Positions 3,612-55,049 of a stretch of DNA of 64,000 bases are shown piece after piece; within the stretch, counting starts at the first letter, position 1, and every line of letters starts with the position of its first letter. The notes under the pieces were generated by a model, which saw nothing but the letters and a program-made list of their open reading frames with translations, was not told the origin of the DNA and did no database searches. Position numbers and translations under genes: made by a program. Origin of the DNA: the human T2T-CHM13v2.0 reference genome, Homo sapiens; the NCBI RefSeq assembly GCF_009914755.1, contig NC_060939.1, one strand, 5' to 3'.

Positions 3612-4579
3612 AGAAAGATAACTGGAAAATCCCAAAATATGTGGAGATTAAACAACTATTTCTGAATAATGCATGGATCAAAGAAGAAATCTCAGGAGAA
3701 ATTTAAAAATATTTTGAACTAAATGAAAATGAAAACACTACTTATCAAAATTTATAGGATGCAGTGAAAGTCATGCTTAGAGGGAAATGTATAGCAGTGA
3801 ATGCATATGTTAGAAAAGTAGAAAGGTCTAAAATCAGTCATTTAAGTTTCCACCTTAGGAAATTGAAAAAAAAAAGGCAAATTAAATCCAAAGTAAGCAA
3901 AATAAAAGACATAATAAAAAATTAGAACAGAAGTCAATAAAATTAAAAACAGGAAATCATTAGAGAAAATCAATGAAACCAATAGCTGGTTCTTTGACAG
4001 TATTAATAAAAATGCATAAGCCTCTAGCAAGGCTAAGAGAAAAAGAGAGAGGACACAGATTACTTCTGTCAGAAATGAAAGAGGGTTATCACTACAGATC
4101 CCATGGACATTAAAAGGAAAATAAAGGAATACTATGAACAACTCTGTGCCTACCAATTTGATAACCTAGATGAACTAGACCACTTCCTTGATAGACACAG
4201 TCTGCCAGCTCTACAAAAAGATAATCTGAACAGGTTTATATGTATTAAATAAATTGAATCAATAATAACCTTCCAAAGCAGGAAGCACCAGGTACAGATG
4301 GGTTTGCCGGTGAATTCTACCAAATATTTAAGAAGAAACTATACCCCTTATCTACAGTCTCTTTCAGAAGATAGAAGCAGAGGGAATACTTCCTAATTCA
4401 TTCTATGATGCCATTGTTATGCCAGTACCAAAACCAGAGAAAGACACTACTACAGACCAATGTCTCTCATGATCTTAGATGAGACAAAACTACAGACCAA
4501 TATCTCTCTTGATCTTATATGCAAAAATTCTCAATGAAATATTAGCAAGTTGAATTCAACAATGTATACAAGAATTATA

Positions 4580-11913
<7,334 letters not shown>

Positions 11914-14989: not shown

Positions 14990-16690
<1,701 letters not shown>

Positions 16691-16696
16691 GGAGCC

Positions 16697-16752
16697 TGCG
16701 TTAGGGTTCCCTAGAGGTACAGAACTAATAGGAGATATATACATATAATAGG

Positions 16753-16806
<54 letters not shown>

Positions 16807-16879
16807 CGGCTACCACACCCGGCCACCTCTGTTATTTCTGTTCAGCTCTCAGCCCTATATCATTTTAGATATGTGTGTG

Positions 16880-16925
<46 letters not shown>

Positions 16926-17380
16926 TATGTGTGTATATATATGTATATATGTACATATACATTCTTAGATTTGTGGATTGATGTTTTTCACCAAATGATT
17001 CTTCCTCAAAAATGCCTCCCCTGACCAAACTATCTAAAATAGAGCCTCCCACCACTCTCTATCACATCTCCCTGTTTTAATTTATACACAGCACTCTGAC
17101 ATTTATATTATGTTCTATAACTTTTGTTTATTTATTGTTATCTCCCCAACAAGAATGTAAGCTTCGTAGGACAATAACTTGGTCTGTTTTGTTCACTGCT
17201 GAATCTCCAGCTGTTTAAAACAGTTCTTGGCAGGGCACAGTGGCTCACGCCTGTAATCCCAGCACTTTGGAAGGCCAAGGCGGGCGGATCGAGAGATCAG
17301 GAGTTTGAGACCAGCCTGTATGTATATATATACATATACAGCCTGTATATGTATATATATACACACATATATATATGCAT

Positions 17381-17415
<35 letters not shown>

Positions 17416-17953
17416 AAGGGGAGTTTATTAAGTATTAATAAAGCCTGGATGACAAAGCAAGACTCCATCTTAAATAAATAAATAAAATTTAAAATGTGTG
17501 TAACTTGAGTCCTAGAAGGATAAAAAAAGATAGAATTTTAAAATTTGAATAATATATGATCTGAATAAAGGGGAGTTTATTAAGTATTAACTCATACGAT
17601 CACAAGGTCCCACATTAGGTTGTCTGCGAGCTTGAGGAGCAAGGAGAGCCAGTCCAAGTCTCAAAACTAAAGAATTTGGAGTCTGATGTTTGAGGGCAGG
17701 AAGCATCCAGCACGAGAGAAAGATGTAGGCTGTTAAGCTAGGCCAGTCTCACCTTTTCTCGTTTTTCTGCCTGTTTTATATTCGCTGGTAGTTGATTAGA
17801 ATTTGCCCATCAGATTAAGGGTGGGTCTGCCTTCCCCAGCCCACTGACTCAAATGTTAATCTCCTTTGGCAACACCCTCACAGACATATCCAGGATCAAT
17901 ACTTAAAGTATCTTTCAGTCCAGTGAAGTTGACACTCAATACTAACCATCACA
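16697..17953 (-). mobile_element. MLT2A1-like (ERV-L) solo LTR containing a complex insertion
   Basis: TG...CA ends, 5-bp TSD gagcc (16692-16696/17954-17958), MLT2A sequence (cccactgactcaaatgttaatctcctttggcaacaccctcacagac). Confidence 0.85.
16759..16804. repeat. Pure (TA)23 microsatellite; compound (TG)/(TA) arrays at about 16870-16960 and 17318-17412
   Basis: Read directly from the sequence. Confidence 0.95.
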
Positions 17954-19639
17954 GAGCCTGTTGATTCTGTCAGGCTTGTTTATGCTTTGGTTTTTTGCTT
18001 CATTAGAGCAAGTTAGTTTTTATTTTGTTTTTAGTCTCAGAGCATGGCCTTTAACTCTAGAGTGTGGCCTAAAAATGATAATAATCATAAGTAATTAGTC
18101 TAGTGTGGTGATGTGCTCCTATAGTCCCAACTACTCAGAAGGGTGAGGTGGGAGGATCATTTGAGCTCAGGAGATTGAGACTGCAGTGAGCTATGATCAT
18201 GCCACAGCACTTCAGCCTGGGCACTAGAACAAACCCCAACTCTAAGAGCGTGGTCCCTACTCTTAAACTATGGCCTTGTAGCAACTCATCTGAATACCGA
18301 AGATGGTTGGTGCTCCATGACCTCTGTTATTTCCTTTATTTTTTATTTTTAATAGGGAAGACGGGGAGAATTTTAGCCTTTTTTGTGTATGTGTGCAGTG
18401 GTGTGATTGTAGCTCACTGAAGCATCTACTTCTTGGGCTCAAGCTCTCCTCCCACCTTTGCCTCTGAGTATCTGGGACTACAAGTGTGTGCCAGCATGCC
18501 CACCTAATTTTTTTAATTTTTAGTAGACACGAAGTCTCACTATGTTTTACAGGCTGGTCTCAAATTCCTGAGCTCAAGTGATCTCCCACCTTGGCCTCCC
18601 AAAGCACTGGGATTGCAGGGATGAGCTACCACACCCAACCACCTCTGTTATTTCTGTTCAGCTCTCAGCCCTATAGGAGGAGCTGTCTGTTAGACCCCAT
18701 GAAGTCTCACCCTGTGCATACACAACCTGGGGCTTGGCCAAAGACCTAAGAGGAAATCCCCATATAGATTTCTGCTCTCCGTTTCATCCCCCACAGGTTC
18801 CTCCTCTGTAATATCCTTTCCTGCAAATTCTAGCCACCTCAGCAGGCCAAACTCTGATGATCTCTGTCTCCTCTGCTCACAAAGACTGCCTATTCATATA
18901 TATCCCTTCTTTTAAGGACCATGGTCTTGTGCTGATGGTTGTACAGTGCTTACAAACAGCTGCCTCATGTATTTTTCCTGCCTTTATAATTGTTTAGGGT
19001 AGAGGAAACCCAATACTGGTTAGTATGTCATTGCTAGCAGTGGAAGTTCATGTTGTCCTTTTTAAATTAAATAAATCCATCTCTAAGTTTAAAGGAAACT
19101 CATTACTCACAGACCATGTCTCAGGAGCCATATGAGAACATAATTTTAAGTAGTACATGTAGACATTTACCTATATTTCATGGAGGGCTGAGATAGTCCC
19201 ACTAACCAGTATTTGAGCAAATTTCAAGTGTGTTGTATCTGTTCATATACACAAAGCAAAGAAAGAATGTTATATCGTTGTTTTGTATTTAATGTTTATG
19301 TTTCAGAATGATTAATATTACTTCATCTCTTTCTAGGAGTTTTTATGGTCAATTGCTGATCTGAGTTTCAGTAACTTTCCAAAACATTACTATAAGTAAA
19401 TATTCATCAGGACTCTGAAGTGCAAGTCAACTATATAATCAGGAGGCTCAGAAAATTGATCACAGCCGGTCAATAAATTGATTAGTTTTACATGTAAATT
19501 GTAAAACTAATCAGATTTTCTCAATCTAAATCTTAGATTCTCTTTCATTCTAAGGATAAATACATTACTTTGACAACTCTAAATACTCCAGTATGTATTA
19601 ATCACCAACTATTTGCTAGGCTTGTCTCATAATCCAGAG

Positions 19640-20850
19640 GAAAATATTCTCACTTAGTCCCCACATTGATCATGCAGGGTAAATGGCATCATCTTTATTT
19701 TATAGATGAGGGTTGAGGCTTAGAAAAATTAGGAACTAATCCAAAGTCATGCAGTTAATAAATTACAGAGCCATGATTTGACTCTCTAAAAGAGAAAATC
19801 TGGTCTAACTCCAAAGCTCATGTATTTTATTCTTTTATTCTCTTGGCTGTGCAGTAGAACCACCTTTGGAGCTTTCAGTAAATATAGAAACCCATGCCCC
19901 ATTCCCATGTTCAGTACGTCTGTGGTAGTGTCTGTAATATTAGAATGCAGCCAGAGTTGAGGACCACTGCTTATCAGTGCCATACTCCTTCTCTATAGCC
20001 ATAGGCACTGGATCATGAAGTCCTGTTAGTCAGGAAATTGGAAGTCTAGACAGTTTTGAGATTATAGCCCTGCTGTTAGAGTAAGAAAATGGGAGGAAAA
20101 GGCAGGATCAGTTCTTTTTTTGCCTCTCAGAGTAGGGGCTGCAACTGAAGCCTAAAAGAGAAGTAGAGGACGATTAATCCTAAACCACCTGTCATCTTTG
20201 TAAGCATCTTACCAGTTTCTTTAGAAATGTTTACTCTGAATTTTTAAGTCAAGTGAGAGGTATGTCTTATCTCTACTGTCATGAGCTTTTTGTTTCCTCA
20301 CCTTTGAAAAAGGGATATCTATCTAATTTAGAGGTAAGGGTGACATGAGACTAGTGCCTGGTTATTGCCTCCTTAGGAGCTACCAGATACAGTCCCAGCC
20401 CCCAGTTACCTCTGCCACCTAGCCACCTATTCTTAAAGTTTTTACTATTGTGTCTCTAATATGGCCCCTTCTTTCCTGTCTCCCTCATTTCTAACACTTT
20501 TTCCTCACTCCTTAGCTTCTCCTCAAATATGCTGCGCATGCTCCTGTCTCAAGGCCTTTGTACTTGCTCGTCTTTGTTTGAATGTTCTTCCTCCAAGTTT
20601 CATTCATACCTCTGCTCAAATGATTCCTCCTCAAAAATGCCTCCCCTGACCAAACTATCTAAAATAGAGCCTCCCACCACTCTCTATCACATCTCCCTGT
20701 TTTAATTTATACACAGAACTCTGACATTTATATTATGTTCTATAACTTTTGTTTATTTATTCTTATCTCCCCAACAAGAATGTAAGCTTCATAGGACAAT
20801 AACTTGGTCTATTTTGTTCACTGCTGAATCTCCAGCTGTTTAAAACAGTT
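19640..20850. mobile_element. Ancient MIR, MER5-like and L2 fragments
   Basis: ttttatagatgagggttgaggcttaga (MIR core); gcagccagagttgaggaccactg (MER5-like end); agaatgtaagcttcatagg...tgttcactgctgaatctccag (L2 3' end). Confidence 0.6.
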
Positions 20851-20856
20851 CTGGGC

Positions 20857-21810
<954 letters not shown>

Positions 21811-54709: not shown

Positions 54710-55049
<340 letters not shown>

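What the first reader, a model, noticed from the sequence alone, without database searches (positions are those of the whole stretch)
16804..17590. Chain of at least four templated insertions from nearby DNA, fixed at a (TA)23 tract inside an MLT2A LTR
Seen directly: the LTR is interrupted by a mosaic. A: 16809-16859 = 18625-18675 (49/51, direct). B: 16962-16996 = 15694-15728 (34/35, direct). C: 16992-17317 = 20617-20856 + 21158-21243 (about 96%, direct). D: 17442-17569 = reverse complement of 15746-15876. B and C overlap by CAAAT. D returns to the LTR through ATAAA, and the LTR 26-mer ataaaggggagtttattaagtattaa is duplicated (17413-17438/17565-17590). Pieces A, C and D span Alu/flank junctions, so they are not independent repeat insertions. 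Donors B and D are only 17 nt apart. Established: serial short templated copies joined by microhomology mark MMBIR/FoSTeS or Pol theta repair, and long (TA)n tracts form cruciforms and break. Inference: a miniature chromoanasynthesis-like event occurred in the germline and became fixed, and the donors (-1.3 to +4 kb) show what was near the break.
Basis: partly seen in the sequence, partly recalled or inferred. Interest (0 to 1): 0.8.

Follow-up and report, generated by a model that had tools for sequence, protein, structure and literature searches.

The report
Patchwork of copied DNA in LTR
An old retroviral LTR in a GOLM2 intron carries about 800 extra bases at its TA repeat, stitched from at least four copies of DNA lying 1 to 4 kb away: a well-preserved but mechanistically ordinary scar of break repair by template switching.

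Summary
All four copied pieces are at the stated coordinates (A 49/51, B 34/35, C about 97%, D inverted, 8 mismatches and 4 gaps in 125). Their non-Alu parts match only the local donors in the whole CHM13 genome. The CAAAT and ATAAA overlaps, the duplicated 26-mer and the 17-nt gap between donors B and D are all exact.

The host is a solo LTR (16697-17953) with a 5-bp target duplication. It is intact on both sides of the patchwork.

Piece C lacks an Alu that now sits in its donor, and copies differ from donors by 2-6%. So this is an old germline event (roughly 8-41 My), not an assembly error.

Best reading: a break or collapsed fork at the LTR's TA repeat was repaired by serial, microhomology-primed template switching (MMBIR/FoSTeS-like).

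One event for B-C-D is favoured but not proven, because D is more diverged than the other pieces. Piece A could be a separate event.

New here: of 49 other copies of this LTR, 20 are expanded at the same site and 4 are cut there. One holds a second kb-range mosaic. Another holds a mitochondrial fragment plus an inverted copy.

The mechanism is known, so interest is moderate.

The parts
16697..17953 (+). Solo LTR (TG...CA ends), 1257 nt instead of about 445 nt in its relatives. It is interrupted by the mosaic and intact on both sides of it.
   Evidence: Sequence. 39 other matches at 87-89% over the right 390 nt. The left anchor was found in most relatives.
16692..16696 (.). Left 5-bp target-site duplication GAGCC of the LTR. 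The right copy is at 17954-17958.
   Evidence: Read directly.
16759..16804 (.). Pure (TA)23 tract at the LTR's native microsatellite site. It forms the left edge of the mosaic.
   Evidence: Regex; TRF. Hairpin of -12.8 kcal/mol as single-stranded DNA (the shuffle control is uninformative for a dinucleotide repeat).
16804..16823 (+). Join of the TA tract to piece A, with 4 extra bases CCCG. The 7-mer ACCCGGC occurs twice (16804 and 16817). This looks like a short aborted copy of the same donor followed by re-priming.
16809..16859 (+). Piece A: a copy of 18625-18675 (16 nt of an antisense Alu head plus 35 nt of flank), 49/51.
   Evidence: It is the only other match in the genome.
16860..16871 (+). 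Filler TCATTTTAGATA of unknown origin.
   Evidence: No other copy in the window with up to 2 mismatches.
16872..16961 (.). Compound TG/TA microsatellite between A and B. It roughly mirrors the CA/TA array at 17344-17412.
   Evidence: Mirror score is 48, against up to 41 for unrelated microsatellites: inconclusive.
16962..16996 (+). Piece B: a copy of 15694-15728, 34/35. Its left join is blunt.
16992..17317 (+). Piece C: a copy of 20617-20856 plus 21153-21243. It overlaps B by CAAAT and reproduces the donor as it was before the Alu at 20857-21152 arrived.
17312..17348 (+). The C/microsatellite join CAGCCTGTAT occurs twice, 27 nt apart (17312 and 17339). This is a small duplication that includes the join itself.
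17318..17412 (.). Compound TA/CA microsatellite between C and the LTR's right part.
17413..17438 (+). First copy of the LTR 26-mer, followed by 3 filler bases TAA (17439-17441).
17442..17569 (-). Piece D: an inverted copy of 15746-15876 (Alu 3' end, A-rich tail and flank). 8 mismatches and 4 gap events.
17565..17590 (+). Second copy of the LTR 26-mer. It overlaps D by ATAAA.
15694..15876 (.). Donor region for B (15694-15728, copied direct) and D (15746-15876, copied inverted). The two donors are separated by 17 nt.
18625..18675 (+). Donor of A.
20617..21243 (+). Donor of C. It now holds an Alu at 20857-21152, flanked by a target duplication of about 14 nt. This Alu keeps 22 CpG and is absent from the copy.

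Best explanation
A double-strand break or collapsed replication fork arose in the germline inside the TA-rich microsatellite that this LTR family carries about 50 nt from its 5' end. [quoted passage not shown] Between bouts it jumped with 0-5 nt of microhomology. It returned to the microsatellite at least twice, and re-entered the LTR 26 nt behind the point where it had left.

The result is a net gain of about 820 nt, with no LTR sequence lost and the donors untouched. This is MMBIR/FoSTeS-type serial template switching on a small scale.

Shown: the pieces are templated, the joins are as described, the event is old, and the site is hit recurrently in the LTR family.

Inferred: the initiating break at a TA hairpin or cruciform, which polymerases acted, and that B, C and D (and perhaps A) belong to a single event.
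For: Evidence at this locus:
1. Four pieces of 51, 35, 326 and 128 nt match local donors in register. The donors continue on both sides, so the mosaic is the copy.
2. The non-Alu parts have no other match in the 3.1-Gb genome.
3. The joins are 5 nt (CAAAT), 5 nt (ATAAA), about three blunt or 1-nt joins, and fillers of 4, 12 and 3 nt. In human-cell MM-BIR events read on single molecules, 51-56% of joins overlapped (median 2-3 bp), 11-16% were blunt and 28-38% carried unmapped filler. Insert medians there were 77-234 bp (PMC13065848, passages).
4. Donors B and D are 17 nt apart, do not overlap, are in opposite orientations, and have C between them in the product. Chance of such adjacency within +-5 kb is 0.003. 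[quoted passage not shown]
5. A 26/26 duplication of the LTR flank brackets D, as expected when a nascent strand re-engages behind its exit point.
6. Two small stutters repeat donor or join sequence: ACCCGGC twice and CAGCCTGTAT twice.
7. Copies differ from donors by 22/532. C reproduces the empty site of an Alu that still keeps 22 CpG. The structure is therefore old and real.

Evidence from other copies of the LTR:
8. Of 49 other copies sampled, 25 have 39 nt or less at this site, 20 are expanded by 54 to about 1050 nt, and 4 lose the LTR's left part exactly at the TA tract.
9. One copy (chr13, L018) holds a second mosaic. It has a 78-nt piece from 4.5 kb away (77/78) and an inverted 71-nt piece from 3.9 kb on the other side.
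10. Another copy (chr2, L040) holds a COX1 mitochondrial fragment (Pfam E=1e-12) plus a 141-nt inverted copy of its own LTR start and upstream flank.
11. Four expansions hold inverted flank copies that 0 of 200 shuffles reach.

From the literature:
12. TA repeats extrude cruciforms, are cut by ERCC1-ERCC4 or MUS81, and are repaired by Pol theta MMEJ (PMC13645644, passages).
13. Microsatellite-induced BIR gives template switches and roughly 1000-fold mutagenesis (PMC11161834, passages).
Against: - D is more diverged than the other pieces: 8/125 against 8/316 substitutions (Fisher p=0.085), and 4 against 0 gap events. D could therefore be older, which would split the event.
- A is separated from B by about 100 nt of microsatellite and has no link to the other pieces.
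- Only 2 of about 8 joins show clear microhomology.
- The TA tract's length at the time of the event is unknown.
- The hairpin energy of (TA)23 does not differ from dinucleotide shuffles (z=-1.0). That control cannot discriminate for a dinucleotide repeat.
- No orthologue, read or population data could be examined.
- The 49 relatives are the best-scoring matches of more than 4000 candidates. They were chosen for an intact right half, so they are not a random sample, and there is no matched control of TA tracts outside LTRs.
Confidence: 0.75

Rival explanations
1. Stepwise accretion. The microsatellite broke several times over millions of years, and each repair added one templated patch. For example D came first with its 26-nt duplication, then B-C, then A. 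The mosaic would then be a pile of simple events rather than one complex one.
For: - D shows 6.4% substitutions plus 4 gap events, against 2.5% and 0 gaps for A+B+C1.
- The pieces are separated by microsatellite, so each could have entered a repeat tract on its own.
- The same site in 24 of 49 relatives has been hit independently, so repeated hits at one locus are plausible.
- The join duplication at 17312/17339 shows that at least one later or secondary change occurred.
Against: - B and C are joined directly by microhomology.
- The B and D donors are 17 nt apart (chance 0.003). This is hard to explain for events separated in time, unless that donor spot is intrinsically favoured.
- The excess in D is only marginal for substitutions (p=0.085). 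Its gaps all lie in A/T runs.
- Error-prone synthesis during break-induced replication could make D more diverged from the moment it was copied (PMC11161834; PMC4937565, search listing and abstract start only).
Confidence: 0.2
2. RNA-templated or LINE-1-mediated patches (templated sequence insertions). Pieces of GOLM2 pre-mRNA, from the same intron, were reverse-transcribed into a break.
For: - All donors lie in one intron of a + strand gene, and A, B and C are in sense orientation (hub annotation).
- Class 2 templated sequence insertions are described as break patches (PMC5110952, abstract).
Against: - No piece ends in a poly-A tail, and there is no TTTT/A-type target. The only duplication is 26 nt and brackets D alone. 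The class 1 features listed in PMC5110952 are therefore not met.
- Extending the two break ends on sense RNA would place inverted pieces next to the left end and direct pieces next to the right end. The observed order is the opposite (inference from strand polarity).
- The donors are local, not distant.
Confidence: 0.03
3. Assembly artefact or chance resemblance among repeats.
For: The region is rich in simple repeats and Alus, which can confuse assemblers and readers.
Against: - The copies differ from their donors by 2-6%, and a chimeric assembly would give identical copies.
- The whole structure is under 1 kb.
- The non-Alu parts are unique to their donors in the genome.
- The pieces cross Alu/flank junctions.
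Confidence: 0.01

Closest known systems
MMBIR / FoSTeS complex templated insertions (germline CNV breakpoints; human-cell MM-BIR events in PMC13065848)
   Same: Several short copies of other DNA are chained with 0-5 nt overlaps, blunt joins and short fillers. Both orientations occur, donors are clustered and non-overlapping, and a flank is duplicated on re-entry. Piece sizes of 35-326 nt fall inside the reported ranges.
   Different: Here all donors lie within about 4 kb in cis and the net change is under 1 kb. The event is an old germline one seen only as a fossil. The published single-molecule events mostly draw on many chromosomes and were induced at telomeres or nuclease cuts.
Breaks at TA repeats repaired by Pol theta MMEJ (PMC13645644), and microsatellite-induced BIR (PMC11161834)
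   Same: A TA or AT-rich repeat is the fragile site, and repair uses microhomology and template switches with local mutagenesis.
   Different: Those are somatic or cancer and reporter systems. Typical Pol theta inserts (recalled, not read here) are tens of nt copied from within tens to hundreds of bp. C is 326 nt from 3.6-4.4 kb away.
Short-range template switches in great-ape evolution (PMC7954356)
   Same: Fixed evolutionary template-switch mutations. [quoted passage not shown]
   Different: Those are single switch-and-return events. The abstract sets them below the kilobase-to-megabase scales usually studied. This locus has at least four pieces from kb-range donors.
Templated sequence insertion polymorphisms, classes 1 and 2 (PMC5110952)
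   Same: A patch of DNA templated elsewhere fills a break (class 2).
   Different: In those, the donors are distant and RNA-derived, and each is usually a single patch. The class 1 hallmarks (poly-A, TTTT/A site, short target duplication) are absent here.
NUMT and other filler-DNA capture at breaks (PMC2567098, search listing and abstract start; PMC3467031, abstract)
   Same: One relative LTR (L040) captured a COX1 fragment at the same TA site. NUMTs are reported to sit next to A+T oligomers.
   Different: The window's own mosaic holds only nuclear, local donors.

Membership tests
MMBIR/FoSTeS-type serial template switching | Two or more inserted segments, each a copy of another locus whose original is retained | tested here: met
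   Four pieces, with donors intact and continuing on both sides. The donors are unique in the genome.
MMBIR/FoSTeS-type serial template switching | Microhomology at the switch points | tested here: inconclusive
   Two joins have 5 nt (CAAAT, ATAAA). About three are blunt or have 1 nt, and three have 3-12 nt of filler. The mix resembles published MM-BIR joins, but microhomology is not universal.
MMBIR/FoSTeS-type serial template switching | All segments laid down in one event | tested here: inconclusive
   For: B and C are directly joined, and the B/D donors are 17 nt apart (P=0.003). Against: D is more diverged (p=0.085 for substitutions; 4 vs 0 gaps). Orthologues are needed.
MMBIR/FoSTeS-type serial template switching | Raised mutation density in or near the newly synthesised tracts | tested here: inconclusive
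   D's excess differences fit this, but they cannot be polarised. Paralogues cover only 15640-15763.
Pol theta end joining with templated inserts | Short inserts copied from sequence close to the break, with repeated abort and re-anneal cycles (definition recalled, not read here) | tested here: inconclusive
   The stutters ACCCGGC x2 and CAGCCTGTAT x2 fit. Pieces of 128 and 326 nt from 1.3-4.4 kb away are larger and farther than I recall as typical. A Pol theta start handing over to a processive polymerase, as proposed in PMC13065848 (abstract; passages), would reconcile both.
LINE-1-mediated insertion (class 1 TSIP) | Target-site duplication, poly-A tail and a TTTT/A-type target (PMC5110952 abstract) | tested here: not met
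   No piece ends in a poly-A run. The only duplication is 26 nt around D, and D's ends are not A-tails.
Chromoanasynthesis | Large-scale clustered copy gains across a chromosome region made by serial template switching | tested here: not met
   The net gain is about 820 nt at one point. It shares the proposed mechanism, not the scale.
ERVL-type solo LTR (reader: MLT2A) | TG...CA termini, short target duplication, many dispersed copies | tested here: met
   Starts TG at 16697 and ends CA at 17953, with GAGCC on both sides. 4265-4807 first-look candidates, of which the 40 scored per search were 87-94% identical.
ERVL-type solo LTR (reader: MLT2A) | Match to the curated MLT2A family model | not testable with these tools
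No Dfam or Repbase library is available.

The most novel reading that the evidence does not exclude
The TA microsatellite about 50 nt inside this ERVL-type LTR family (more than 4000 copies) may be a genome-wide class of recurrent germline break sites. These sites heal by synthesis-dependent repair and leave readable scars: fold-back copies of the LTR's own flanks, kb-range templated mosaics, mitochondrial DNA capture, and truncations. The family would then serve as thousands of natural, datable replicate reporters of how primate germ cells repaired TA-tract breaks over tens of millions of years. The window's locus would be the most complex example seen so far.
Probability: 0.4. Interest if true: 0.6.

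Novelty: new member of a known kind. Interest (0 to 1): 0.45.

Why it matters
Serial template switching is mostly studied in patients, tumours and engineered cells. Clean germline examples that can be dated by sequence divergence are less often described.

This locus preserves every join, the donor map and a relative date, because an Alu entered one donor after copying. It therefore gives a concrete test case for one-event versus stepwise models once ape and monkey assemblies are aligned.

The wider pattern would be more useful if it holds in a full census. The same LTR site is expanded, cut or filled with foreign DNA in about half of 49 sampled copies. That would give a repeat-family-wide readout of germline break repair at TA tracts. 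It would also mean many 'split' LTR annotations are repair scars.

No effect on GOLM2 is indicated, since the site is deep in an intron.

Tried and rejected
- Primate orthologues, reads and pangenomes: no tool holds them. The genome tool states that the human genome has no relatives here.
- Polarising D's differences with paralogues: the old repeat that holds donor B ends near 15763, so most of D's flank has no outgroup.
- Mirror symmetry of the TG and CA microsatellite arms around B-C (a possible fifth, inverted piece, or a palindrome-centre break): score 48 against a maximum of 38 in 300 unit shuffles. But unrelated microsatellites in the window reach 41, so this was left as inconclusive.
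- Origin of the 12-nt filler TCATTTTAGATA: no other copy in the window.
- Hairpin energy of (TA)23 against shuffles: uninformative.
- By-eye calls of inverted flank copies in relatives were re-tested against shuffles. Only 4 of 20 expansions are clear, 3 are marginal, and L057 and L068 were not supported.
- Literature: a search for 'MLT2A' with 'microsatellite' and 'insertion' gave 3 papers, none about this site by title. Searches found the mechanism papers cited, but nothing on a TA-tract hotspot in an LTR family. Subscription journals are not covered.

Full report
WHAT IS THERE

The host element is a solo LTR at 16697-17953. It starts with TG, ends with CA, and is flanked by a 5-bp target duplication GAGCC at 16692-16696 and 17954-17958. 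Its relatives elsewhere in the genome measure about 445 nt; this copy measures 1257 nt.

The distance between the last conserved left-hand bases (window 16752) and the first conserved right-hand bases (17577) is 824 nt here. It is -8 to +39 nt in 25 of 49 other copies. The LTR is complete on both sides of the extra DNA, so the change is a pure gain.

Reading left to right, the extra DNA consists of:
- a pure (TA)23 tract (16759-16804)
- four bases, CCCG
- piece A (16809-16859)
- a 12-nt filler
- about 90 nt of TG/TA repeat
- piece B (16962-16996)
- piece C (16992-17317)
- about 95 nt of TA/CA repeat
- the LTR 26-mer (17413-17438)
- three bases, TAA
- piece D (17442-17569)
- the same 26-mer again (17565-17590), followed by the rest of the LTR

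CHECK OF THE OBSERVATION

- A equals 18625-18675 at 49/51.
- B equals 15694-15728 at 34/35.
- C equals 20617-20856 at 98% and then 21153-21243 at 93%.
- D equals the reverse complement of 15746-15876, with 8 mismatches and 4 gap events over 125 aligned bases.
- B and C share CAAAT. D and the LTR share ATAAA. The 26-mer copies are identical.
- Donors B and D are 17 nt apart.

A search of the whole 3.1-Gb assembly found the non-Alu parts of all four pieces only at these donors. A, C and D each cross an Alu/flank boundary, so they cannot be independent Alu insertions. At each donor the sequence continues on both sides, so the mosaic is the copy and the donors are the originals.

AGE AND REALITY

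Copies and donors differ at 22 of 532 aligned positions, 8 of them at CpG sites. An assembly chimera would be identical to its sources, so the structure is real.

Piece C runs straight from unique DNA into the head of the Alu at 21153. It skips the Alu at 20857-21152, which is flanked by a target duplication of about 14 nt. The copy carries the undisturbed target sequence. That Alu still keeps 22 CpG in 284 nt, whereas its neighbour keeps 10, so it is the younger element and entered the donor after the copy was made.

With substitution rates of 0.5-1.5e-9 per site per year (recalled values), the divergence gives about 8-41 My, depending on which pieces are used. A neutral variant of that age should be fixed. 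This is an inference; no population data were available.

HOW IT MOST LIKELY AROSE

The anatomy matches serial, microhomology-primed template switching after a break or fork collapse:
- several short copies of nearby DNA, in both orientations
- donors left intact
- joins that mix 5-nt overlaps, blunt ends and short fillers
- a 26-nt flank duplication where the growing strand re-entered the LTR behind its exit point

Two small stutters fit a polymerase that starts, falls off and re-primes. ACCCGGC occurs twice at the start of A, and the C/microsatellite join CAGCCTGTAT is repeated 27 nt later.

Single-molecule data from human cells show the same mixture. In those data 51-56% of joins overlapped (median 2-3 bp), 11-16% were blunt and 28-38% carried unmapped filler. 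Insert medians were 77-234 bp. [quoted passage not shown] The B/D donor pair, with C between the pieces in the product, is exactly that pattern. The chance of a 17-nt adjacency within +-5 kb is 0.003.

The initiating lesion is inferred, not shown. TA repeats extrude cruciforms under transcription-driven supercoiling, are cut by structure-specific nucleases, and depend on Pol theta end joining (PMC13645644, passages). Structure-forming microsatellites trigger break-induced replication with template switches and roughly 1000-fold mutagenesis (PMC11161834, passages). The site lies in a transcribed intron of GOLM2 (hub annotation).

Pieces of 128 and 326 nt from 1.3-4.4 kb away are longer and more distant than I recall for plain Pol theta inserts. 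I therefore favour an MMBIR-like process, perhaps started by Pol theta and continued by a more processive polymerase, as that paper proposes.

ONE EVENT OR SEVERAL

In favour of one event for B, C and D: B and C are joined directly, and the B/D donors are adjacent.

Against one event:
- D has 8/125 substitutions against 8/316 for A+B+C1 (Fisher p=0.085).
- D has 4 gap events against none in the other pieces. All the gaps lie in A/T runs.
- Error-prone synthesis could explain this excess, but so could greater age.
- I could not polarise the differences, because paralogues of the donor region end near 15763.
- A has nothing that ties it to the others.

My odds are about 0.65 that B-C-D are one event, and about 0.5 that A belongs to it too.

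RIVALS

- Stepwise accretion is the serious rival (0.2).
- RNA-templated or LINE-1-mediated patches are unlikely (0.03). There are no poly-A tails and no TTTT/A-type target, and only a 26-nt duplication around D (compared with the class 1 features in the abstract of PMC5110952). Extension of the two break ends on sense RNA would also put inverted pieces on the left and direct pieces on the right, which is the reverse of what is seen.
- Artefact or chance is close to excluded (0.01).

I sampled 49 other copies of the LTR.
- 29 came from a search with the window's right half (40 matches scored of 4807 candidates).
- 20 more came from a search with a relative's right half. Of its 30 loci, 10 were dropped because they repeated places already sampled.

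At the same site:
- 25 copies have 39 nt or less.
- 20 are expanded by 54 to about 1050 nt.
- 4 lack the LTR's left part within 400 nt, meaning the LTR is cut at the TA tract.

Many of the expansions contain more than simple repeat:
- L018 (chr13) holds a second kb-range mosaic. It has a 78-nt piece from 4.5 kb away on the same strand (77/78) and a 23-nt filler. It also has a 71-nt inverted piece from 3.9 kb on the other side, which spans the start of another LTR copy plus 27 nt of that copy's flank (27/27).
- L040 (chr2) holds a fragment of about 235 nt that matches many nuclear mitochondrial copies at 70-82%. It translates under the mitochondrial code to COX1 (Pfam PF00115, E=1e-12). Next to it lies a 141-nt inverted copy (94%) of the LTR's own start and upstream flank.
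- Against 200 dinucleotide-unit shuffles, inverted flank copies are clear in L013, L018, L040 and L061. They are marginal in L038, L021 and L032, and unsupported in L057 and L068, which I had first called by eye.
- Several other expansions show tandem repeats of flank sequence (L031 by BLAST; L015, L017, L019 and L021 by eye).

This supports the idea that the TA site of this LTR family breaks repeatedly and is mended by synthesis that copies whatever is at hand.

Limits of this survey: the sample is small, it was chosen for an intact right half, and there is no control set of TA tracts outside LTRs.

COMPARISON WITH WHAT IS KNOWN

The mechanism class is well described (MMBIR/FoSTeS, Pol theta repair at TA repeats, microsatellite BIR, short-range template switches in apes, filler-DNA and NUMT capture). 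The locus is a new, unusually legible member of that class, not a new kind of thing.

It is not chromoanasynthesis by scale. It is not a class 1 templated insertion. The LTR family name could not be tested.

I found no paper on a TA-tract hotspot inside this LTR family. The library lacks most subscription journals.

VERDICT

The finding is a new member of a known kind, with interest 0.45. The family-wide hotspot is the most novel reading still open (probability about 0.4).

Noticed in passing
L018 (G000 C13:22520860-22521270, minus strand): Another copy of the same LTR has its own templated mosaic at the TA site. It holds a 78-nt piece from 4.5 kb away (77/78) and a 23-nt filler. It also holds a 71-nt inverted piece from 3.9 kb on the other side, which crosses the start of a neighbouring LTR copy. 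The filler contains a 9-mer that also lies 4 nt beyond the second donor piece.
   Followed up: yes
L040 (G000 C2:166871809-166872208 and upstream): At the same LTR site there is a mitochondrial COX1 fragment of about 235 nt (Pfam E=1e-12). It sits beside a 141-nt inverted copy of the LTR's own start and upstream flank. The total expansion is about 1050 nt, including long AT-rich arrays.
   Followed up: yes
L020, L030, L035, L071: In four relatives the LTR's first 50 nt or so are missing, and unrelated DNA abuts the TA tract directly. The LTR appears to be cut at that tract (a deletion, rearrangement, or an insertion longer than the 400 nt inspected).
   Followed up: partly
window 20857-21152: A young-looking Alu (22 CpG in 284 nt) with a target duplication of about 14 nt landed immediately in front of the head of an older Alu (21153 onward, 10 CpG). 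Piece C preserves the undisturbed target.
   Followed up: partly
window 16723-16758: The LTR's left flank motif AATAGGA...ATAT occurs twice in tandem just before the (TA)23 tract. Similar flank repeats are seen in several relatives (L017, L021).
   Followed up: no
window 16360-16456: A second compound CA/TA microsatellite lies 300 nt upstream of the LTR's TA tract. It resembles the arrays inside the mosaic (score 41 vs 48 for the mirror pair), so similarity between the mosaic's repeat arms cannot be read as copying.
   Followed up: partly
window 54710-54960: A 250-nt compound AT-rich array (units of 11-78 nt by TRF). It is the other large AT-rich array in the window and was not inspected for embedded foreign pieces.
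   Followed up: no
window 15723-15741: The 17-nt gap between donors B and D, together with B's end, holds two short palindromes, CCAAATTTGG and GAAATTTC. B stops at the centre of the first one.
   Followed up: no
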